Below are positions 23,526 to 32,918 of a stretch of 49,030 nucleotides of DNA, piece by piece; positions within the stretch are counted from its first letter, which is position 1, and each line of letters opens with the position of its first letter. The translations under genes were made by a program, and so were the position numbers. The notes below the pieces were generated by a model. The model saw nothing but the letters and a program-made list of their open reading frames with translations. It made no database searches and was not told the DNA's origin. Source of the DNA: Candidatus Xenobia bacterium (GTDB lineage Bacteria; Vulcanimicrobiota; Xenobia; Xenobiales; QWHO01); the NCBI GenBank assembly GCA_045863235.1, contig BTUM01000059.1, forward strand, positions 1-49,030. The letters are read 5' to 3'.

Positions 23526-23972
23526 TTAGAGCAACTCGAGGCAGGCCTTCAGGAAGGCCTCAGGGTCGGGCTCTCGGCCCGAGCCGAATTCCCCAAAATT
23601 GCTGTGCTCGCCATGGGTGGACCATTCGCAATGCATCATGTTCGGATTTCCGTCCAGGTCCTCGCCCAACTCCAGCACGAAGTAACGCACTTTGTCCCCT
23701 CGCACCACGACTGCGGCCAGGATGGCCTCGGGCGGGAAGCGAGCCGGGGGCATGGTGACCAGCACCACCTTGTCCTGACCCAGCTCGCGCAACTCGGTGC
23801 TCAACCCCTTGGGAGAGATCGGGCGGGGGTTGTCATCCCCGACCCGTTCCCAGATCAGGCCGATCCAGCCGGGGTCTTCAGCCGCCAACAGAAACTTGGC
23901 AGGGGAGCTGAGCGCCAGATGGGGCAGGACCCGATGCGCAAATTGATAGTGCTGGTCGCGGGGGCGGCTCAT
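23526..23972 (-). CDS. hypothetical protein
   Basis: 148-aa ORF overlapping the hisS stop (ATGA). Contains RYFVLE...CEW...H.NFG. Confidence 0.75.
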   Translation of the reverse strand: MSRPRDQHYQFAHRVLPHLALSSPAKFLLAAEDPGWIGLIWERVGDDNPRPISPKGLSTELRELGQDKVVLVTMPPARFPPEAILAAVVVRGDKVRYFVLELGEDLDGNPNMMHCEWSTHGEHSNFGEFGSGREPDPEAFLKACLELL

Positions 23973-25273
23973 GCTGGCACCTTCTCACGCCCGGTCAGCC
24001 AGTCTTGCAGACCGAGCGTGATCTGCTGGCCGGTGGCCAGGGCCTTCACCTCGACCTGGGCGGGCCACAGATAGGGGAACATCACGTGCGGGATCTCCTT
24101 GCGGTCGGCATAGCGAATCTGTTTGTCCAGCTTGGCGGGCTCGTGGAACACCTCGGCCGGGACATTGGCGGCTCGCAACTGGCGAGCGATGTCGTTGGCC
24201 GCGCTGCGATGCTCTTCGCCTGGGAGCACCACCAGAACCTCGGTGGGGCTCGAGCGGGTGGGGTTCCAGCCCCCCTTGCTGAACAGATAGGAGAGCAAGC
24301 GCGAGACTCCGATGGAAATGCCCACTCCGGGAAGTTTGCGCTTGATGAACTCGCTGGCCAGGTTCTCATAGCGCCCGCCCGAGCAGACGCTGCCCAGGGC
24401 GGGATAGTCAGGCAATACGGCCTCGTAAATGGTGCCGGTGTAGTAATCGAGGCCGCGCACGATGCCAAGATCGACCTCCAGGGCCTGGCCCAGGTGGGCC
24501 AGCTGAACGGCCACGAACTCGAGCTCGGCCAGACCCTCTTCCAACTGGGCCTCGCTAAGTCCGGAGGTGACGTCCCGACAGCCGGCTATCCCGCGAACCT
24601 GGGCCAGGGCCAGACAGCGCTCCACCTGCTTGGAGCTCAAGCCCTGCTCACCCAGAATGCGGGCCACCACCTCGGGGCCCACCTTCTCCAGCTTGTCCAC
24701 TTCGCGCAGGGCGGAGGCCACCTGCTCGCCCTCCAGACCCAGGGCCCGGTAGAATCCGAGCAAGACCTTGCGGTTGTTGATCCGGATGCGAACCCGAATA
24801 CCCAGCCGCTGGAAGATCTCAGCGATGATCGCCGCCATCTCGGCATCAAAGTGTAGCGCCAGAGTGTCCTCGGAGATGACGTCGATGTCAGCCTGATAAA
24901 ATTCTCGAAAGCGGCCCTGGGCGGGCCGCTCGCCTCGCCAGACCTTCTGAATTTGATAGCGCTTGTATGGAAAGCTCAGCTGAGGGTAGTTCTGGGCCAC
25001 ATAGCGGGCCAGGGGCACGGTGAGGTCAAAGTGCAGCGCCAGCTCGCGCTTGTCCGCCCCGGACTCGGCAGCCAGGCGCTCGAGAGCATAGATCTCCTTG
25101 CCCTCCACCCCTTTGGCCTGGAGCACCTCGACCCGTTCCACCGCCGCTGTCTCCAGCGAGGCGTAGCCATACAGCTCGTAGACGCGGCGGATGGTATCCA
25201 GCACCTCCAGCTCCTTCAGGCGCTGGGCTGGTAGCCATTCGGGAAATCCGCTGATCGCACTGGGCTTGAACAT
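23969..25273 (-). CDS. hisS: histidine--tRNA ligase
   Basis: FDLTVPLARY, RGERPAQGRFREFYQAD, VRGLDYYTG and GGRY motifs. Confidence 0.97.
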   Translation of the reverse strand: MFKPSAISGFPEWLPAQRLKELEVLDTIRRVYELYGYASLETAAVERVEVLQAKGVEGKEIYALERLAAESGADKRELALHFDLTVPLARYVAQNYPQLSFPYKRYQIQKVWRGERPAQGRFREFYQADIDVISEDTLALHFDAEMAAIIAEIFQRLGIRVRIRINNRKVLLGFYRALGLEGEQVASALREVDKLEKVGPEVVARILGEQGLSSKQVERCLALAQVRGIAGCRDVTSGLSEAQLEEGLAELEFVAVQLAHLGQALEVDLGIVRGLDYYTGTIYEAVLPDYPALGSVCSGGRYENLASEFIKRKLPGVGISIGVSRLLSYLFSKGGWNPTRSSPTEVLVVLPGEEHRSAANDIARQLRAANVPAEVFHEPAKLDKQIRYADRKEIPHVMFPYLWPAQVEVKALATGQQITLGLQDWLTGREKVPA

Positions 25274-25519: not shown

Positions 25520-27391
25520 TCAGGCCGCGATAGCCTGTTGGGGCTGAGGCTGAGGCTGGGCGGTCGGCGGTGCGGCCGGGGGGGCCGGGGGGGCCGGAGG
25601 CGCCGCCTGGGGCGGCGGCAATGCCGGCTTGTAAGTGGCCGCCGCAGCCAGCTTCTCATCCACCGTACGACTCCGGTTCTGATGATTGTTGACAATGGCT
25701 TTTCCGGTATTCACGGCCATGCGTCCCAGCGCCAGGGCCAGCACGCCCTGCGAAACGACCTGAAGGGCCGGGTTCATCGTACCCGTGAGCAGCGCACCGC
25801 AGGTGAGGGCGGTGCCCACGCCGATAGCCGTGTCGATGGCCCCGTCCACGATGAGATGGCGCCGATTGGCGGCCGGTGAATCGTCGCGACGGATGCCTTC
25901 GACGATCTTGCTGACGCCCGAGTGGGTGCGCAGTGCCGCGCCCACGGCGCCGGCAGCCACGGCCACCACGCCGGGAATGGGCAGCAGGTATGGGAAGCTC
26001 ATCAGCGGGTACCAGTTCAGGCCTGCGGCCGCAGTGGCGCCCGCGGCCGCATCCATGGCAAACTGGTAGCCGTAGAGACGGGAGATCTGCCCGAAGCTCA
26101 TCATACTGCGCGAGAGTTTGGGATAGCGGCCGAGCAGGTCGTCATCCTTGGCGATCGACTTGAGCATCTTCTCCCAGTTGGAGTTGTTCGAGCCACCGGC
26201 CCAGCTGGTGTTCTCGTAACCGTGGGTGCCGCCCACGGGAACGCCCTCCACCGGACTCTTGCCTTCGCGGTCAAAGCCATAGTCGGTGGGCAGGTAGGCC
26301 GACAGGCCCGTAGAGCCCTCCATCGAGCGGCCGACCATTCCGTTCGTCACCGAATGGTGCTCGGCCACCACAGCGTTGCCGAGCTGCTGCTTGATGGCCT
26401 CGGCCGCCTGGCGTACGTCGGCCGGGAAGCGCTCGTCCTTGGCCACCACCTTGGCGAAATCTCCCAGGTCGCGATAGTCGACATAGGGCTCGATGTGAGC
26501 CTCGATGTTGGCATAGTGTTGAGCTTGCTTGATATCCTTGCGCAACACGTCAACCAGCGAAGCATCCTGGCCGATAGCGCTGAGCATCTTGCCGGCGAAA
26601 TCCTCGCAAGCGTTGCGGATGCCCTCAGCGTGAGAGAGGTCTACGGCCGACTGGGTGGGGGTGAAGAGCGAGGTTCCGAACTGATGCTTGGACTCGTAGA
26701 CGAACAGCTGCGCGATCTCTTCGGCGCTCAGGTCGCGGCCTTTCTGGTAGGCCTGCTGGCAGTCCTCGATCACCTTGTGCTGGGGGGTGGTTCCGAACAA
26801 CCCCGGAATGGGAATGCGCAAACCCGCCTCGACCTCTTCCGAGCCGACCATATACTTGGCTACGTTGCGATACTCGTAGGCCACCTCGGCCTGGTTCATC
26901 AGGCAAGCGTTGAAGTTGATGACATCCAACTTCTGCCCGGTGTTCTGCTGGGCGCGCTCGAGCGCGGCCGCCAGGTCCTTGTTCTGACAGATCGAGCCGG
27001 CCTCATCGTCGGTCAGGATGCCTTTGAAGCCGGCTCCGTGATTCCATAGCACCAGCACGGTCTTCTCGGCCGGATAGGTGCGCATGCCCCACTCCACAAA
27101 GTCCTGCACCGACTGGGGGCTGCCCATGTCGACGTTACCGCGGTTCTCAAACGAACTCGTGCTGGCCCCCTTGGTGACCAGGCCGCGAACCACGTCCTCC
27201 TTCATCAAGCCGAGCTCGGCCACGACATTGACGTTGTCATCCGAGCCGACTTTGTCGAGAGAGTTGAAGGAGTGCTTGGCCATCGAGGAGAGGTTGTTCT
27301 TGCCGTCGATGAAGTAGAGCACGGTCAGGGCTTTCTTCTGCTGGGGCTTGGCGGTGCCGGTGGTGGCGGCGGGGAGGGGAGTGACCTGCAT
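25520..27391 (-). CDS. clostripain-family (C11) cysteine peptidase with C-terminal hydrophobic helices
   Basis: DGKNNL, LWNHGAG (His), FNACLM (Cys) and EVAYE motifs. Confidence 0.9.
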   Translation of the reverse strand: MQVTPLPAATTGTAKPQQKKALTVLYFIDGKNNLSSMAKHSFNSLDKVGSDDNVNVVAELGLMKEDVVRGLVTKGASTSSFENRGNVDMGSPQSVQDFVEWGMRTYPAEKTVLVLWNHGAGFKGILTDDEAGSICQNKDLAAALERAQQNTGQKLDVINFNACLMNQAEVAYEYRNVAKYMVGSEEVEAGLRIPIPGLFGTTPQHKVIEDCQQAYQKGRDLSAEEIAQLFVYESKHQFGTSLFTPTQSAVDLSHAEGIRNACEDFAGKMLSAIGQDASLVDVLRKDIKQAQHYANIEAHIEPYVDYRDLGDFAKVVAKDERFPADVRQAAEAIKQQLGNAVVAEHHSVTNGMVGRSMEGSTGLSAYLPTDYGFDREGKSPVEGVPVGGTHGYENTSWAGGSNNSNWEKMLKSIAKDDDLLGRYPKLSRSMMSFGQISRLYGYQFAMDAAAGATAAAGLNWYPLMSFPYLLPIPGVVAVAAGAVGAALRTHSGVSKIVEGIRRDDSPAANRRHLIVDGAIDTAIGVGTALTCGALLTGTMNPALQVVSQGVLALALGRMAVNTGKAIVNNHQNRSRTVDEKLAAAATYKPALPPPQAAPPAPPAPPAAPPTAQPQPQPQQAIAA

Positions 27392-27569
27392 CGTCTGGTG
27401 GTTCCCTTCGCTAGCTGGATTTTGTTCTATTTTCTCTGAGGGACATTATGCCGTTGCGCGTGACCGGGGGGGTGAATGAGTTGTAAACGTCGGCCCAGGC
27501 GCCCTGAAACAAGCCTGAATAGCCGATTTTCCGTGGTTCTGAACCCTCTTTGCGAACAAGAATTTGGGG

Positions 27570-27598
27570 TTGACACCACCTCGGGGGCGGGCTATATT
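27570..27598 (+). promoter_or_regulatory. sigma70 promoter driving the RNA array
   Basis: TTGACA (27570-27575), 17-nt spacer, TATATT (27593-27598). Predicted +1 near 27605-27606. Confidence 0.85.
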
Positions 27599-27605
27599 GA
27601 GCCCC

Positions 27606-28858
27606 GTCGACGGCAACGTCGGCCGAACCGGTGGGCGAAACAACCGGCGCTCCGGCGTAGCGATACAGCCGGCGGGCTGCCAGAGACCGATACCTGGCAG
27701 GGGTAACGTTCTAACCACAGTGACGTCGCAGTATCTCGGCTGCGGTCAAAACCGAGGTGGGCCCGAGGCCCTTCCGGAATCGCGAGAGGAAGTAACGACG
27801 ACGGTCGTTCTCCGGAGCAGGGGAGAATCGGGTGAAGCTCGATGAGGATGGAGTCGAGACCTGTTGGGCGCGAGCCCGACCGCCCCGGCGAGCGAGAGAG
27901 CCGGCGCATCGGGGAGGCGTTAGACCCGGCGGGCTGTCAGAGACCGTAATCTGGCAGGGGTAGCGTGCAGACCACAGAACGCCGCAATGCCTCGGTTGCG
28001 AGAACCCCGAGGTGGGCCTGGGACGAAGAACGGGACCGCGAGGTATCAAGCACGATCTGATCGTGCCCCGTCGTAGTCGAACCAGGGTGGTTCGGTGTGG
28101 TTGGAGCCGAACGACGCTGAGCAGCCTGGCTGCCTCAGCCGCACCGGGAAGCGAAAGAACCGGCGCTCCGAGTGGCGTCAAACTCGGCGGGCTGTCAGAG
28201 ACCGTGACCTGGCAGGGGTAGCGTGCAGACCTCAGATACGTCGCAGTGTCTCGGCTGCGAGAACACCGAGGTGGGCCTGGGAACGAACGCGGGACCGCGA
28301 GGGTAAGCAGTGGGTGAAACCACCCCCGCCGTAGTTGCACCAGGAATGACCGGTGAGGATGGAGCCGGTCGCCAACCTGACGGTTGGCCGCCCTGTCGAG
28401 CGTGATCGACAGCGCACCGGGAAGCGAGAGAACCGGCGGTCTGTCGGAGACCGATACCCGACAGGGGTAACGTGCAGACCAGAGCACGTCGCAGAGCGAC
28501 GGCTGCGTTAAGAAGCCGACGCACCCGCCCGGAGGCGCCCGTGAGACGTCCTCAAGAATGGGTCGGGTACGTGCTGCAGCAGAGATGCTCAGCCGCTCCG
28601 GCAAGCGTGAGAGCCGGAACACCGAGAGGTTCTACTCTCGGCGGGCTGCCAGAGACCGAAACCTGGCAGGGGTAGCGTGCCGACCACAGTTACGCCGCGG
28701 TGTCTCGACCGTGACAACCTCGAGGCGGGCCTGGGACCGGTTGCGGAACCGCGAGGGTGAGCGTGATGGGAAGTCACCTCCGCGACTTGAGTCGAACCAG
28801 GAGAGTCCGGTGTGGCGGAGCCGGACCGCAGAGCCACCCTTGAGGTGGCTTTTGTGTT
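27606..28858 (+). ncRNA. tandem array of five structured RNA units (unassigned family)
   Basis: Five copies of the core CTGYCRG-AGACCGWNAY-CYGRCAG-GGGTARCGT at 27677, 27934, 28192, 28441 and 28646. Compensatory stem changes between copies, promoter and terminator flanks, no credible ORF. Confidence 0.85.
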
Positions 28859-28860
28859 TT
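28832..28860 (+). terminator. intrinsic terminator closing the RNA array
   Basis: AGCCACC-CTTGA-GGTGGCT followed by TTTGTGTTTT. Confidence 0.85.
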
Positions 28861-28862
28861 AT

Positions 28863-29939
28863 TCAGTCGTCTCGGGAAAAGAGCTCGAGTTGCACGGGAG
28901 CGTTGGGGTCCGAAAGCCCTGAGACACCGACCCCGACCAGCCGGACGGCACGATCAGGGAACTCCGTCCGACTCTCGAGCAATCGGCTGGCCAGGGCGAA
29001 AATCTCGTCCGCCTCACTGACCGGGCGACCCGGGGTATGGCTCCGGGTCACCGTGGCGAAGTCGTGGTAGCGAAGCTTCAATACCACCGTGCGGGCCTGC
29101 GCGCCCAGGCTAGCAAGCCGTTCGGCCACCTCGGCCGACTGAGCGGCCAATTGCTGGAGAACCGGCTCGGGTGAATTCTGGTCAACCGCAAAGGTCGTCT
29201 CGGCGGAGATCGACTTGGCGTCCCGATCAGGTTCCACGGGCCGCTCGTCGCGGCCGTGAGCCAACATCCAGAACTCGTAGCCAGCGCGACCGAACCGCGC
29301 CTGGAGCCACTCAGGCTGGCAGGCGGCGACCTGGCCGATACGAGTCAGGCCCAGTTCGCGAAATCGTGCCGCCGTAACCGGGCCGACCCCCCAGAGGCGC
29401 TCGACCGGGAGCGGCTCGAGAAAGCCCTCCACCTGCTCGGGCGCCACGATCACCAGCCCGTTCGGTTTGCGCAGGTCGGAGGCCACTTTGGCCACGAACT
29501 TACAGGGAGCTCCGCCGGCCGACGAGGTCAAATCCACCGCTCGAGCCAGGTCAGCCTTGATGGCCTGGGCCACCACCGCCAGGCGTTCACCCTTTCGCTG
29601 GCAATACTCGGTCAGGTCAAGGTAGCACTCATCCAGGGCCAGCGGCTCGACCAGGGGAGTGTAGCTCAAGAAGATGGAGCGAATCTGGCGAGAGACCTGC
29701 GCGTAATGCTCGTGTCGAGGGGGCACCCGGATCGCTTCTGGGCAGAGTCGCAAGGCGGTGCGGGTGGGCATGGCCGAACGCACTCCGAATTGTCGAGCTT
29801 CGTACGAGGCAGCTGCCACCACCCCTCGACCCTGCTCGCTCCCGGCCACGATGACCGGCTTTCCTCTGAGCTCGGGAGCATCCCGCTGCTCGACGGACGC
29901 ATAGAAGGCATCCATGTCCACGTGCAGGATTCTTCTCAG
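28863..29939 (-). CDS. dinB: DNA polymerase IV (probable CTG start)
   Basis: RRILHVDMDAFYASVEQ, ASYEARQFGVRSAMP, LALDECYLD, AKVASDLRKPNG and LWGVG motifs. Confidence 0.95.
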   Translation of the reverse strand: MRRILHVDMDAFYASVEQRDAPELRGKPVIVAGSEQGRGVVAAASYEARQFGVRSAMPTRTALRLCPEAIRVPPRHEHYAQVSRQIRSIFLSYTPLVEPLALDECYLDLTEYCQRKGERLAVVAQAIKADLARAVDLTSSAGGAPCKFVAKVASDLRKPNGLVIVAPEQVEGFLEPLPVERLWGVGPVTAARFRELGLTRIGQVAACQPEWLQARFGRAGYEFWMLAHGRDERPVEPDRDAKSISAETTFAVDQNSPEPVLQQLAAQSAEVAERLASLGAQARTVVLKLRYHDFATVTRSHTPGRPVSEADEIFALASRLLESRTEFPDRAVRLVGVGVSGLSDPNAPVQLELFSRDD

Positions 29940-30829
29940 CCGGCCTTCGCCTCCATCGGCGTCAGCGGGCGGACCATGCCTCGGATGGCATACTTCAACT
30001 CAAAGCCCATCTCCAGGTAGACCTTGATGTAGCCAGGCTCGGTCGTATTCCAGATCTGGCGGACCAGGGTGACCCCCGGAGTGCTCCAGGCGGTCTTGAG
30101 AGCGGCCGCCAACAGGGCTTTGCCGACTCCTCGGCGACGGTGCTCGGGCAAAACCCCATAGGCCTCCAGGGTGGCCACCTCGTCCAGAAACTCAAGCTCG
30201 AGATGACCCACCAGCTGCTCACCGGCCCGAGCCACAAAGATTCGGTAGTTGGGCGAGCGAGCCAGCAAGGCGACATAATTGACGCTGCGCCGGGAAAACA
30301 GGCTGGCGTGCAGGTCCTCGTAAGCCGACAGATCGAGCTCGGGTCCGGCCAGCTCGATCGTAATCCCCTCGGGCGGGGCCACCTCGGGGTGTGAAGGCCG
30401 TTGGCAGACGACGATCACGTCGGTCTTCTCCAACTCGAAGCCCAGGCTGGCCACAAACTTCTCCCCGGCTTCGTTCTCATCCCCAAGAACGACCGCAACC
30501 CGGCGGATCCCTCGGGCGCTCATGACGGCGGAAAGCTCTTCGAACAAGCGCTTTCCCCAGCCCTGACGGCGATAGGCTGCTTCCACCACGGGGCCGTCGA
30601 GCAGGGCCCGGCCTGCGGGCATGGGATCGTAACCACAAAAGCCCAGAACGCGCCCTTCCGGCCCCTCCAGGATCAGAAAATTCTCGTGCGGATTGTTGGA
30701 CCGATTTGCCAGCTCGCTCCGCAGGCGCTCAGGCGTCATCCAGGCCGTACGGGTGGGATTGACATGGACCTGGTTGAGCAGAGCGCTCACCGGCTCGAAA
30801 TCGGCCTCACGAAAGAATCTGATAAACAT
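29936..30829 (-). CDS. tandem GNAT acetyltransferase
   Basis: Two motif-A copies: VEAAYRRQGWG and VLPEHRRRGVG. Confidence 0.88.
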   Translation of the reverse strand: MFIRFFREADFEPVSALLNQVHVNPTRTAWMTPERLRSELANRSNNPHENFLILEGPEGRVLGFCGYDPMPAGRALLDGPVVEAAYRRQGWGKRLFEELSAVMSARGIRRVAVVLGDENEAGEKFVASLGFELEKTDVIVVCQRPSHPEVAPPEGITIELAGPELDLSAYEDLHASLFSRRSVNYVALLARSPNYRIFVARAGEQLVGHLELEFLDEVATLEAYGVLPEHRRRGVGKALLAAALKTAWSTPGVTLVRQIWNTTEPGYIKVYLEMGFELKYAIRGMVRPLTPMEAKAG

Positions 30830-31399: not shown

Positions 31400-31718
31400 T
31401 CGATTCACCTCCTTCCTTGAATCAAATGCGCTACCTGAGAACTTACAGGTAGTCACTTGGCCTCGGTATTCGCGTACTCACTCCCAGTTCCTCCCAACTC
31501 GGCTTGATTTCCCTTCACCTCTGAAAAACCCGCCGTTGCGTGGATTGTGCAGGGTTCGAAGAAGGTGACCGGGGCGTGGCCGGTGGTTTTTTTCCGGGGA
31601 GCGACCTTGAATGGATCTCGATTTCCGAGCCTGGCAGATCCGTCGCTGCCAGTGGGAACGGGGGTCCTCTGCCTGCAACGGGCAGGACGCCCATCCCCAC
31701 AGTCGAAAAACCAACCCC

Positions 31719-32918
31719 ATGCATCTCGTTAGCCTTCGCCCCCTGGAACCAGTGCCCATCGACCACGAAGGCGAGCGCCTCATCGCCTTTCGCGATAGTG
31801 CGGGACTCGTGAGCGGCGTGGTCATGGTGCGCCCGGCCGCTTACGTCCTGGTCAGCCTGCTCGATGGCACGCGCACCAAGCAAGAAGCCCTGGCCGAGTT
31901 CGCCGCCCGCACGGGAGCAATGGTTGAGCTGGAAACGCTGGATGCGCTGATCGAGCAACTCGAGCAGGCTTTGATCATGGACGGCCCCCGGGCCCGGCAA
32001 GCCCTGGCAGCGATGCCCGAGCGCCCGGCCGCCCACGCCGGCAGCGCCTATCCAGCCGAGCCGGACGAATTGACCGGGTTCCTCGAGGCACTGCTCGCTC
32101 GCGAGCGCCCGCCGAAGCCGCCCGCCCCTCTAAGCGGGCTGCTAACGCCTCATATCGACCTGCGTCGGGGCGCCGAGAGTTACGCCATGGCCTATAACAG
32201 CTTGATCGACGGACTGGGCGAGAACGATACCTTCGTGGTGCTGGGCATCTCCCACGCCCCCTGTCGGCAGCCCTTCATCTTGACCAGAAAGCCCTTCGAA
32301 ACCCCCTTTGGCTGCCTCGAGCCAGACCTGGACCTGATCGAGGAACTGGTGCAGGGATGCGACTTTGACCCCTTCCAGGATGAATACAACCATCTGGGCG
32401 AGCACTCGGTCGAGTTCCAAAACGTCTTTCTGGCCTATCTCGAACAGCTCTCCGGGCGACGACTGAAGACCGTGCCCATTTTGTGCGGCTCTTTCCACGA
32501 AGCCATCCTGGAGCGCAAAAGCCCGCTTGAGATTCCGGGCGTGGCCAGTTTCCTTGCCTCCCTGAAATCTGCCGTCAGAAAGAGGCCGGGACGGGTCTGC
32601 CTCATTGCCGGCGCCGACCTGGCCCATAAGGGCGTGCGTTTTGGTGAGCCTCCCCTCGATCGAGACTTCTTGAGCCAGTTGGAGCTGGCCGACCTGGAGT
32701 CCCTACGCCATTGCGAGCAGGGCGACTACGACGCGTTCTTCGCCACCCACCAGGCTGATCGGGGTGAGCGCAATTATTGCGGCACCTCGGCCATCTACAC
32801 CATGCTTCACTGCCTCGAAGGCCAACCGGGCGTTCTGCACCGCTACCAGCAGTGCAATGAGCCCGGGGAGATCTCCACCGTCACCGTGGCGGCGGCAAGC
32901 TACTATCGCTTCCCCTGA
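31719..32918 (+). CDS. MEMO1-family (AmmeMemoRadiSam protein B) with N-terminal extension
   Basis: RPAAHAGSAYP, PHID, EHSVEFQ, ADLAHKG and NYCG motifs. Confidence 0.88.
   Translation: MHLVSLRPLEPVPIDHEGERLIAFRDSAGLVSGVVMVRPAAYVLVSLLDGTRTKQEALAEFAARTGAMVELETLDALIEQLEQALIMDGPRARQALAAMPERPAAHAGSAYPAEPDELTGFLEALLARERPPKPPAPLSGLLTPHIDLRRGAESYAMAYNSLIDGLGENDTFVVLGISHAPCRQPFILTRKPFETPFGCLEPDLDLIEELVQGCDFDPFQDEYNHLGEHSVEFQNVFLAYLEQLSGRRLKTVPILCGSFHEAILERKSPLEIPGVASFLASLKSAVRKRPGRVCLIAGADLAHKGVRFGEPPLDRDFLSQLELADLESLRHCEQGDYDAFFATHQADRGERNYCGTSAIYTMLHCLEGQPGVLHRYQQCNEPGEISTVTVAAASYYRFP

What the first reader, a model, noticed from the sequence alone, without database searches (positions are those of the whole stretch)
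27570..28860. Self-contained operon of five tandem, highly structured non-coding RNA units
Seen: a near-perfect sigma70 promoter (TTGACA-17-TATATT), then five diverged units with cores at 27677, 27934, 28192, 28441 and 28646 (periods 257, 258, 249 and 205 nt), then a U-tailed terminator at 28832-28860. The flanking genes (clostripain and dinB) are both on the minus strand, so no protein gene lies in this transcript. Module order per unit: variable leader hairpin; CCGG-N12-CCGG hairpin whose loop holds GCGNRA; pseudoknot B; core hairpin CTGYCRG/CYGRCAG with loop AGACCGWNAY; GGGTARCGT..ACC..ACG element; pseudoknot D; a large variable domain closed by CCTGG/CCAGG; a GGAG-loop hairpin. Sequences diverge but pairing is kept, e.g. 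core CTGCCAG/CTGGCAG becomes CTGTCGG/CCGACAG in unit 4. Inference: selection acts on RNA structure, giving a ~1.25 kb multimeric ncRNA, possibly processed to ~250-nt monomers. It could act as a protein sponge, scaffold, ribozyme or antitoxin-like RNA. It does not match CRISPR, tRNA, rRNA, tmRNA, RNase P, T-box or the riboswitches I recognise.
Basis: partly seen in the sequence, partly recalled or inferred. Interest (0 to 1): 0.95.

Follow-up and report, generated by a model that had tools for sequence, protein, structure and literature searches.

The report
Abundant tandem-module structured RNA gene
This stretch is a gene for a very highly expressed non-coding RNA made of five head-to-tail copies of one knotted RNA domain; it belongs to an uncatalogued RNA family found only in one branch of the uncultured soil phylum Eremiobacterota, and its job is still unknown.

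Summary
Window 27570-28862 has a near-consensus promoter, five diverged ~205-258-nt units and an intrinsic terminator, with no gene on that strand.

- **No known family:** Rfam 15 gives nothing for the window or for 18 related loci. Four literature searches found no description.
- **Structure:** each unit has a ~110-nt core of four helices and two pseudoknots. About 90% of cells pair, against 33-43% when partners are slid. One tertiary pair reads G-C in 66 and A-U in 11 of 77 sequences, with no exception.
- **Copy number:** 27 cores at 9 loci in this genome, each locus a separate transcription unit.
- **Distribution:** 20 of 151 sampled genomes of the phylum, in three families with 5-9.5 Mb genomes. 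More than 132 metagenome contigs carry it; none was found in phages or plasmids.
- **Expression:** RNA contigs from three studies cover the array at depth 184-247, against 0-5 on the flanks, and bridge unit junctions.
- **Stability:** the array is syntenic in four congeneric genomes.

Function is inferred only. Most likely it is a multivalent, stoichiometric binder (sponge or scaffold) for an unknown partner. This scan already met the family on other DNA (e1-6403533, e1-6403542).

The parts
27553..27558 (+). CGAACA element 11 nt upstream of the -35 hexamer; possible shared regulator or UP-like site
   Evidence: A regex for AACA[AG]..GGTTGACA-promoter hit 4 places in the 8.36-Mb genome, and all 4 are promoters of this RNA family. 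Its function is inferred only.
27570..27598 (+). Sigma-70-type promoter TTGACA-17-TATATT; transcription start expected near 27605
   Evidence: 11 of 12 positions. Only 24 sites of the form TTGACA-17-TAnAnT exist in the genome; 4 drive this family and others precede tRNA genes. The RNA contig of run X4 begins at 27617.
27606..27623 (+). 5' leader hairpin (CGACG-GCAA-CGTCG); related loci start with GTCGACGGCGACGTCGAC
   Evidence: Read from the sequence. Present at the start of the C43, C23, C79 and C6 loci.
27628..27859 (+). Unit 1: AGCG-loop hairpin 27628-27647, core 27648-27762, 3' domain and G-rich-loop hairpin to 27859
   Evidence: Model R1 match 27648-27762, 108.3 bits; nhmmer full-unit match 27623-27857.
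27860..28113 (+). Unit 2, the worked example. P4 27934-27940/27951-27957. J4/5 GGGUA 27958-27962. PK1 G27958-G27959 with C27972-C27973. P5 27963-27966/27979-27982. P6 27983-27987/27996-28000. PK2 27990-27995 with 28007-28012. 3' domain closed by 28017-28021/28082-28086, with GNRA hairpin 28035-28044. G-rich-loop hairpin 28091-28111.
   Evidence: R1 match 27905-28017, 111.4 bits. Helices were placed from alignments A3, A5 and A6 and their pair counts.
28114..28371 (+). Unit 3 (core 28164-28276, full 3' domain and G-rich-loop hairpin)
   Evidence: R1 match at 118.1 bits, the best in the genome.
28372..28568 (+). Unit 4, short form: core 28413-28520, reduced 3' domain, no G-rich-loop hairpin. P4 reads CUGUCGG/CCGACAG.
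   Evidence: R1 match at 105.4 bits; alignment A1. The compensatory change in P4 is visible.
28569..28829 (+). Unit 5 (core 28618-28730, 3' domain, terminal G-rich-loop hairpin GUCCGG-UGUGGCGGAG-CCGGAC)
   Evidence: R1 match at 112.3 bits. A hairpin of this type stands directly before the terminator in 8 of the 8 own-genome loci whose 3' end is assembled.
28830..28862 (+). Intrinsic terminator: 9-bp stem, loop, then a U-rich tail
   Evidence: RNA contigs end at 28805 (X4) and 28838 (X2), while the DNA run carries on.

Best explanation
**Shown.** Window 27570-28862 is a stand-alone gene for an abundant, roughly 1.25-kb non-coding RNA. The RNA is five tandem copies of one folded domain, and it belongs to a multi-copy RNA family restricted, in the data searched, to the Xenobia-type branch of Eremiobacterota (Vulcanimicrobiota).

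Each domain has a ~110-nt core made of:
- a hairpin (Pa);
- a 7-bp hairpin, P4;
- the invariant junction GGGUA, whose first two G pair with the CC of the invariant P5 loop CAGACCNNAG (pseudoknot PK1);
- a second pseudoknot formed by the P6 loop and the 3' tail (PK2).

Most domains add a three-way-junction 3' domain with a GNRA hairpin. Every transcript ends in a hairpin with a G-rich loop carrying GGAG/GAGG motifs.

**Inferred.** Four features point to a stoichiometric rather than a catalytic role:
- the core is what is repeated, 1 to at least 8 times per transcript and 27 times per genome;
- some arrays are still expanding;
- the promoters are of stable-RNA strength;
- the invariant bases cluster in one pseudoknotted pocket.

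The RNA most likely works by presenting many identical binding pockets that titrate or scaffold one partner, more probably a protein than a small molecule, in the manner of a sponge RNA. The partner is unknown.
For: **Transcription unit**
- Promoter and terminator are in place and no same-strand gene lies between them.
- The antisense 303-codon open frame has no Pfam hit and is broken in 3 of 4 orthologous arrays.

**Expression**
- 15 RNA runs from public studies hold at least half of the sampled words.
- RNA contigs: X4 covers 27617-28805 at depth 245, X8 covers 27675-28714 at depth 247, and X2 covers 27850-28838 at depth 184.
- Flank depths are 0 in X4, 0-4.6 in X8 and 0-2.6 in X2. The DNA run X1 is mostly even, at 4-12, across the whole stretch.

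**Structure**
- In 22 own-genome cores, 90.1% of cells pair against 33-43% when slid. 19 of 27 pairs change on both sides, and 0 of 500 shuffles reach the observed values.
- In 77 distinct cores from 45 loci, 90.2% pair against 33-43%, and 27 of 29 pairs change on both sides.
- The PK1 pair reads G-C in 66 and A-U in 11 sequences, with none unpaired. PK2 is 77.5% paired and all 6 of its pairs covary. Neither pseudoknot was part of the search model.
- For the 3' domain and terminal hairpin, 90% of cells pair against 18-56%.

**Multivalency and dosage**
- 27 cores lie at 9 loci holding 1 to 5 or more units each.
- Three 100%-identical 106-nt core-only units sit at a contig end.
- One 1789-nt metagenome contig carries 8 units.
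- 4 of the genome's 24 perfect consensus promoters drive this family.

**Stand-alone, trans-acting**
- No Pfam family recurs among the 62 neighbouring proteins of the 9 loci.
- No neighbour pair from different loci is alike at E of 1e-4 or better.

**Selection**
- The five-unit array is syntenic in 4 congeneric genomes.
- Against the most distant of them the cores are 82-90% identical and the linkers 69-81%; dinB is 71.5% identical.
- Units within the array are only 66-79% alike, so the duplications predate the species splits.
Against: - No partner has been identified.
- The obvious sponge targets are not encoded: CsrA, L7Ae and Ro60/TROVE gave no match in this 97.6%-complete genome.
- RRM proteins do not track the RNA: 0 of 4 genomes in the RNA-rich family f1 have one.
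- No conserved neighbouring gene points to a partner.
- About 25 invariant bases in a pseudoknotted pocket fit a small-molecule aptamer or a ribozyme active site just as well.
- Contigs cannot show RNA ends, so cleavage into monomers is not excluded.
- The three identical repeats at a contig end may be an assembly effect.
- Covariation counts come from related sequences, and partly from an alignment fitted to the nested helices, so the shuffle figures overstate significance.
Confidence: 0.45

Rival explanations
1. Array of small-molecule or ion aptamers without expression platforms. Each double-pseudoknot core would bind a ligand, and the abundant RNA would buffer, store or sense it.
For: The invariant bases sit in junction and loop positions around an H-type pseudoknot (CAG|GGGUA|..CAGACCNNAG), as in many riboswitch aptamers. 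Copy number varies in a way that suggests dosage.
Against: In the loci examined no core lies in a 5' leader of a gene: all 9 own-genome loci and the relatives read are terminated stand-alone units. No gene context hints at a ligand. No natural precedent for such a buffer is known to me (recalled, not searched).
Confidence: 0.15
2. RNA-only architecture. The domains dock on each other, through GNRA loops and kissing loops, to build a large multi-domain particle within one transcript or between transcripts, as reported for ROOL, GOLLD and raiA (recalled from the literature).
For: 17 of the 18 aligned 3' domains carry a CC-GNRA-GG hairpin (GCGA or GUGA). The RNA has many conserved helices and is very abundant. 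The domains are repeated head to tail.
Against: No covarying inter-domain contact was found in the mutual-information scan of the core. The GNRA motif in the 5' hairpin is not general: 23 of 76 and 20 of 132 units. Core-only short units lack the GNRA domain altogether.
Confidence: 0.15
3. New self-cleaving ribozyme that cuts the multimer into monomers, or an array processed by a host RNase.
For: Tandem arrays of a conserved pseudoknotted core resemble multimeric ribozyme-bearing transcripts. One RNA contig shows a back-join from 27873 to 27761, though with only 24 nt on one side (record 10).
Against: RNA contigs from three studies bridge the junctions; X4 spans all four in one 1188-nt contig. 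Single-unit genes with their own promoter and terminator exist (C35, C12), and there cleavage would serve no evident purpose. The selection for copy number fits a stoichiometric role better.
Confidence: 0.1
4. Base-pairing or Shine-Dalgarno-mimic regulator. The G-rich terminal loop (GGAG/GAGG motifs) would pair with C/U-rich targets, such as the 16S anti-SD or mRNAs, and the pseudoknot cores would serve mainly for stability.
For: A G-rich-loop hairpin directly before the terminator occurs in 8 of 8 own-genome loci with an assembled 3' end and in the relatives read. Hfq is encoded.
Against: The most conserved part is the core, not the loop: the loop sequence varies (UGAGGAUGGAG, UGUGGCGGAG, GCUGGAGUGGAGGCG) while the core keeps about 25 invariant bases. 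No target was identified, and repetition of the core is left unexplained.
Confidence: 0.1
5. Not an RNA gene: a mobile repeat (MITE-like), a protein-coding region or a chance repeat.
For: The family is multi-copy and some arrays lie at contig ends. A 303-codon antisense frame is open in the window.
Against: - No inverted repeats.
- The array is syntenic in 4 congeners.
- The antisense frame is broken in 3 of 4 orthologues and has no Pfam hit.
- There are no phage, viral-contig or plasmid matches.
- G-U pairs occur on the + strand only, for example 27 of 77 at one P5 pair.
- The array is strongly transcribed.
Confidence: 0.02

Closest known systems
CsrB/RsmZ-type protein-sponge sRNAs
   Same: A stand-alone, strongly expressed RNA that repeats one binding module many times in a single transcript. 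Copy number of the module varies between paralogues. GGA-containing loops are present.
   Different: The module here is a ~110-nt double-pseudoknot domain, not a short GGA hairpin. No CsrA gene was found in the genome. There is no sequence or Rfam relation.
Large ornate bacterial RNAs of unknown function (OLE, GOLLD, ROOL, raiA motif)
   Same: Long, highly conserved, complex fold with pseudoknots and GNRA loops. Lineage-restricted, highly expressed, function not obvious from gene context.
   Different: This RNA is built by head-to-tail repetition of one domain, with a variable number of domains. It has many loci per genome and is found in Eremiobacterota. No Rfam model of those families matches. 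The features of those families are recalled, not tested here.
ToxI-type antitoxin RNA of type III toxin-antitoxin systems
   Same: Tandem direct repeats of a pseudoknot-forming RNA unit, transcribed from one promoter and ending at a terminator.
   Different: ToxI units are 36 nt long and are followed by the toxin gene (recalled). Here the units are 205-258 nt, the downstream gene is a convergent DinB polymerase, and none of the 9 loci has a recurrent neighbour.
Tandem riboswitch aptamers (for example glycine)
   Same: Repeated ligand-pocket-like domains in one RNA, with invariant junction nucleotides.
   Different: There is no expression platform and no downstream ORF. There are up to 8 domains rather than two, and the units are transcribed as separate genes.

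Membership tests
Any Rfam 15 family (4227 models) | Match to a covariance model at or near its gathering score | tested here: not met
   0 matches at gathering score in the 49,030-nt window. Within 27400-29000 there were only 3 chance matches, with E of 3.5-9.7 and 12.5-14 bits against cut-offs of 42-50. 0 matches at E of 0.1 or better in 18 related loci, 57,929 nt.
CsrB/RsmZ sponge RNAs | A CsrA/RsmA protein encoded in the genome | tested here: not met
   PF02599 gave no match in the 97.6%-complete genome; the control genomes were positive.
CsrB/RsmZ sponge RNAs | Many short hairpins with GGA in the loop | tested here: not met
   There is at most one G-rich-loop hairpin per unit, and only one per transcript in more distant relatives. 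The repeated element is the pseudoknot core.
Type III toxin-antitoxin (ToxIN-like) | Toxin ORF directly downstream of the repeat array on the same strand | tested here: not met
   The terminator is followed by a convergent IMS/DinB gene. No recurrent neighbour at any of the 9 loci.
Riboswitch / cis-regulatory leader | Located in the 5' leader of a regulated gene, with an expression platform | tested here: not met
   All own-genome loci with an assembled 3' end finish at a terminator with no same-strand ORF.
CRISPR array | Short identical direct repeats separated by unique spacers, with cas genes nearby | tested here: not met
   The units are 205-258 nt, diverged (61-78% identity to the reference copy) and contiguous. 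No cas domains among the neighbours.
MITE / mobile repeat | Terminal inverted repeats, target-site duplications, variable insertion sites | tested here: not met
   No inverted repeat of 16 nt or more in 27300-29150. The array sits at the same position, between the C11 peptidase and dinB genes, in 4 congeneric genomes.
tRNA / tmRNA | Recognised by ARAGORN | tested here: not met
   0 genes in the window.
Y RNA / Ro RNP | Ro60 (TROVE) protein encoded in the genome | tested here: not met
   PF05731 gave no match.
The tandem-module RNA family this scan noted before (e1-6403533, e1-6403542) | Same core fold, detected by a covariance model built from this genome's units | tested here: met
   Locus L028, which shares 159 of 159 words with those findings, matches model R1 at 40.2 and 36.9 bits and shows the same core, GNRA domain and terminal hairpin.

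The most novel reading that the evidence does not exclude
A new class of bacterial RNA: a genetically amplified 'polymer' of identical double-pseudoknot pockets, one of the most abundant transcripts of its host. It would act either as a natural multivalent aptamer array that sequesters or stores a cellular ligand or protein, or as a new ribozyme class. In either case the biochemical activity would have no described counterpart, and it would be specific to an uncultured phylum.
Probability: 0.3. Interest if true: 0.92.

Novelty: categorically new. Interest (0 to 1): 0.82.

Why it matters
New large structured bacterial RNAs are rare, and each has opened new biochemistry or an enduring puzzle. 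This family has several unusual features:
- it is built by repeating one knotted domain;
- it is amplified to 27 domains in one genome;
- it is driven by stable-RNA-strength promoters;
- it is assembled at about 50-100 times the depth of its neighbouring genes in metatranscriptomes from bioreactors, an electrolysis cell and soil.

It is therefore a major RNA species of Eremiobacterota, a widespread soil phylum with almost no cultured members. The core is compact (~110 nt) and sharply defined, so it can go straight to in vitro probing, ligand or protein fishing, self-cleavage assays and cryo-EM.

Tried and rejected
**Known families**
- Rfam at gathering and at permissive thresholds found nothing real.
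- ARAGORN found no tRNA or tmRNA.

**Candidate protein partners**
- CsrA, L7Ae and TROVE are not encoded. This removes the CsrB-like, K-turn/L7Ae and Y-RNA readings, even though the terminal hairpin of some units can be drawn as a K-loop.
- Hfq is present, which says little either way.
- RRM proteins were tried as a co-occurring partner. The pattern does not fit: f1 0 of 4, f3 12 of 16, f5 0 of 1, and many RNA-negative families are positive. I stopped phylogenetic fishing there.

**Gene neighbourhood**
- Conserved neighbours were sought by Pfam on 62 flanking proteins and by all-against-all BLASTP; none was found.

**Structure details**
- The GNRA tetraloop in the 5' hairpin is not general: 23 of 76 and 20 of 132 units.
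- Thermodynamic z-scores are weak.
- Column-wise PK2 counts on the metagenome alignment were noisy, so PK2 was tested per sequence. The longest helix averages 5.64 against 4.02 shuffled in 136 units, and 5.87 against 4.36 in 76 units. About 30% of units have fewer than 5 contiguous pairs.

**Distribution checks**
- Pattern hits in MAGs titled Macromonas, Terriglobia, Solincola and Gemmatimonadales (L048, L054, L059, L067) have no model match and are taken as chance.
- Phage, viral-contig and plasmid searches found nothing.

**Literature**
- Four full-text searches found no description of the family: Eremiobacterota + noncoding RNA; tandem / structured noncoding RNA / multimer; metatranscriptome / abundant / structured RNA / tandem repeats; Vulcanimicrobiota + ncRNA. 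I saw listings and abstract starts only.

**Unresolved**
- The back-join in one RNA contig (27873 to 27761) has only 24 nt on one side, so I do not count it.
Full report
**1. The observation**

- A sigma-70-type site TTGACA-17-TATATT (11 of 12 consensus positions) lies at 27570-27598. It is the only such site in 27000-29400, where shuffles give 0.2.
- The repeat finder returns one family of five copies starting at 27655, 27912, 28170, 28419 and 28624. The spacing is 257, 258, 249 and 205 nt, and identity to the reference copy is 61-78%.
- A 9-bp hairpin at 28830-28852 is followed by TGTGTTTTAT.
- The flanking genes are a C11 (clostripain-type) peptidase at 25520-27388 and a DinB-type polymerase at 28863-29918, both on the minus strand.
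- A 303-codon frame is open antisense to the array. It has no Pfam hit and is interrupted in 3 of the 4 orthologous arrays, so it is not a gene.

**2. It is not a known RNA**

- Rfam 15 gives no match at gathering score in the whole window.
- Within 27400-29000 there are only three chance matches, with E of 3.5-9.7.
- Across 18 related loci totalling 57,929 nt there is nothing at E of 0.1 or better.
- ARAGORN finds no tRNA or tmRNA.
- Four full-text searches returned no description of such an RNA; I saw listings and abstract starts only.

**3. The fold**

I aligned 22 cores from the window's own genome (A3) and named a structure:
- a hairpin Pa;
- a 7-bp hairpin P4 (CUGYCRG/CYGRCAG);
- a 5-bp hairpin P5;
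- a 5-bp hairpin P6 directly abutting P5;
- a pseudoknot PK2 between the P6 loop (CCUCGG) and a downstream CCGAGG.

On A3, 90.1% of cells pair against 33-43% when partners are slid. 19 of 27 pairs change on both sides, and no shuffle of 500 reaches the observed values.

A covariance model of the nested helices (R1) was then used to collect 95 matches (77 distinct) from 45 loci of this and related genomes (A5).
- A mutual-information scan of A5 recovered the helices.
- It also found one unplanned tertiary pair, between the first G of the invariant junction GGGUA and the second C of the invariant P5 loop CAGACCNNAG. The pair reads G-C in 66 and A-U in 11 sequences, with none unpaired.
- With its invariant neighbour (G-C in 77 of 77) this forms a second pseudoknot, PK1, stacked on P4.
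- Counting the full structure on A5 gives 90.2% paired against 33-43% slid, and 27 of 29 pairs with changes on both sides. PK2 is 77.5% paired and all six of its pairs covary.
- PK1 and PK2 were not in the model, so their support does not come from model fitting.
- The nested helices were fitted, and the sequences are related, so the shuffle figures overstate significance.
- Abundant G-U pairs, for example 27 of 77 at one P5 pair, fix the strand as +.

The core is therefore two adjacent H-type pseudoknots. About 25 invariant bases are concentrated at C-A-G | G-G-G-U-A | G-C-N-U-G | C-A-N-A-C-C-N-N-A-G.

Downstream, most units carry a second domain closed by CCUGG/CCAGG. It contains a CC-GNRA-GG hairpin (GCGA or GUGA in 17 of 18 aligned copies) and a variable hairpin. 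A further hairpin follows whose 11-nt loop reads UGWGGNUGGAG. For the named helices of this part, 90% of cells pair against 18-56% slid.

'Pseudoknot B' is a second hairpin of the Pa type. Unit 4 lacks the last hairpin and has only a reduced second domain.

Folding energy alone is unremarkable: unit 2 gives -113.3 kcal/mol with z of -1.36 on the + strand, and -96.5 kcal/mol with z of +0.21 on the - strand.

**4. A multi-copy family of stand-alone genes**

Model R1 finds 27 cores in the window's 8.36-Mb genome, at nine loci.

| Contig | Units |
|---|---|
| C59 (this window) | 5 |
| C43 | 3 |
| C23 | 3 |
| C79 | 2 |
| C6 | 3 |
| C13 | at least 4, at a contig end, including three 100%-identical 106-nt core-only units |
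| C111 | at least 5, at a contig end |
| C35 | 1 |
| C12 | 1 |

Where the ends are assembled, each locus has the same layout:
- its own TTGACA-17-TAnAnT promoter;
- a 5' hairpin, often GTCGACGGCGACGTCGAC;
- one or more units;
- the G-rich-loop hairpin, present in 8 of 8 loci with an assembled 3' end;
- an intrinsic terminator.

The whole genome holds only 24 perfect TTGACA-17-TAnAnT sites. Four drive this family, and others precede tRNA genes.

No Pfam family recurs among the 62 flanking proteins of the nine loci. No flanking protein of one locus resembles one of another locus at E of 1e-4 or better. The RNA is therefore not tied to any neighbouring gene.

**5. Distribution**

- In an even sample of 151 genomes of the phylum, 20 have the core. 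The split is f1 4 of 4 plus the window's genome, f3 14 of 16, f5 1 of 1, f2 0 of 19 and f15 0 of 71. In each of the remaining 16 families no sampled genome has it.
- Positive genomes are 5-9.5 Mb, and most are 6 Mb or larger. The negative family f2, in the same order, has genomes of 1.9-4.7 Mb.
- Copy numbers reach 21-25 matches in the genus and 1-15 in f3.
- A motif scan of one genome per species returned 40 loci. I gave 29 of them to the model, and 25 matched.
- Most matching loci are titled Eremiobacteraeota, Vulcanimicrobiota or Candidatus Xenobia. Two are titled Selenomonadaceae, and one each is titled Burkholderiales, a MAG titled only 'bacterium' and an isolate titled only 'Bacterium'.
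- The four loci without a match (Macromonas, Terriglobia, Solincola, Gemmatimonadales) are taken as chance hits.
- Candidatus Xenobia is a class of Vulcanimicrobiota.
- Relatives read in full keep the plan. One is a four-unit array in f5. Others are ~1-kb multi-module RNAs in f3. A further four-unit array carries the G-rich-loop hairpin only once, before the terminator.
77 of the 80 fetched loci were searched and hold 247 cores. Many contigs of 1.0-1.8 kb consist of nothing but units, for example 8 units in 1789 nt.
- There are no matches in viral contigs, phage records or plasmids.

**6. Expression**

- 18 public runs hold at least half of the sampled words of 27300-29100, and 15 of them are RNA libraries. 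The 18 runs come from 11 studies in all.
- Laid on 26800-29600, the RNA contigs are as follows.

| Run | Type | Source | Contig cover | Depth | Flank depth |
|---|---|---|---|---|---|
| X4 | RNA | electrolysis-cell metatranscriptome | 27617-28805 | 245 | 0 |
| X8 | RNA | soil | 27675-28714 | 247 | 0-4.6 |
| X2 | RNA | bioreactor | 27850-28838 | 184 | 0-2.6 |
| X1 | DNA | sludge | pieces across the whole stretch | 4-12 in most bins | same as the array |

- The X4 contig is 1188 nt long and crosses all four unit junctions.
- These are contigs, so they show presence and continuity. They do not show exact ends, strand or absolute level.
- The flanks act as the silent control.
- The contig limits agree with the predicted start near 27605 and with the terminator.

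**7. Stability and selection**

- The five-unit array lies between the same two genes in four other genomes of the genus. Three are 91-95% identical over the locus and one is 78% identical.
- Against the most distant genome, the cores are 82-90% identical, the linkers 69-81% and the reduced tail of unit 4 only 42%. dinB is 71.5% identical.
- Units within the array are only 66-79% alike, so the duplications are older than the species and all five units have been kept.
- No inverted repeat of 16 nt or more flanks the array.

**8. What it does**

Nothing tested here shows the function. The reasoning for the preferred model is this.
- What is amplified is the core: 1 to at least 8 per transcript, 27 per genome, with apparently recent duplications.
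- The promoters are of stable-RNA strength and the RNA is very abundant.
- The invariant bases form one pocket around PK1.

Amplification of identical sites in an abundant RNA fits a stoichiometric role, meaning titration or scaffolding of a partner, better than a catalytic one. I put this at about 0.45, and I think a protein partner more likely than a small molecule.

The usual suspects are excluded. CsrA, L7Ae and Ro60 are not encoded. RRM proteins do not co-occur with the RNA. Hfq is present.

The rivals are:
- an aptamer array for a ligand (0.15);
- an RNA-only multi-domain assembly (0.15);
- a self-cleaving or processed multimer (0.10);
- a base-pairing or SD-mimic regulator acting through the G-rich loop (0.10);
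- not an RNA gene at all (0.02).

**9. Comparison and novelty**

In principle the RNA works most like a CsrB-type sponge, but it fails that family's defining tests. In appearance it resembles the orphan ornate RNAs (OLE, GOLLD, ROOL, raiA). It is unrelated to them by Rfam and differs in being a tandem repeat of one domain.

This scan met the same family before on other DNA. Findings e1-6403533 and e1-6403542 share 159 of 159 words with locus L028, and that locus matches my model. I found no published or catalogued description, and I rate the family a new RNA class.

Noticed in passing
window 27553-27558; also G000 contigs C6 ~1816, C23 ~80715, C43 ~36137: A CGAACA(A/G) element lies 10-12 nt upstream of the -35 hexamer. 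All 4 genome-wide regex hits are promoters of this RNA family. C23 has the palindrome CGAACAGTTTGTTCG, which by recall resembles a Gram-positive LexA (Cheo) box with the spacing off by one. This may be a shared regulator site.
   Followed up: partly
G000 contig C13 123200-123816 (locus L088 7201-7817): Three 100%-identical 106-nt core-only units lie in tandem at a contig end, next to a phage-integrase-family gene (L088 4329-5564). This is either a very recent tandem expansion or an assembly effect.
   Followed up: no
G000 contigs C39 ~16907 (-) and C23 ~35701 (-): Two further perfect TTGACA-17-TAnAnT promoters are followed by GC-rich, ORF-less-looking sequence. They may be other unannotated stable RNA genes.
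   Followed up: no
window 27761-27879 (RNA run X2, record 10): A 143-nt RNA contig begins with 27850-27873 joined back to 27761. With only 24 nt on one side it could be a circle, a duplication variant or a graph artefact.
   Followed up: no
loci L050, L060, L072, L080, L082 (titled Burkholderiales) and L077, L081 (titled Selenomonadaceae): Public MAGs with these titles hold the core motif. The three of these loci that I gave to the model (L072, L077, L081) match this Eremiobacterota-restricted RNA. L077 has the same score and match length as a locus of genome G052, which the tool places in family f3. The titles are probably wrong.
   Followed up: partly
window 23969-25270 (-), 29936-30826 (-), 31611-32915 (+): Neighbouring genes are histidyl-tRNA synthetase, a double GNAT acetyltransferase and a Memo-like protein. 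None is linked to the RNA.
   Followed up: partly
G000 contig C113 6851-7039 (-): The Hfq domain lies in an open frame of 234 codons, much longer than a typical Hfq.
   Followed up: no
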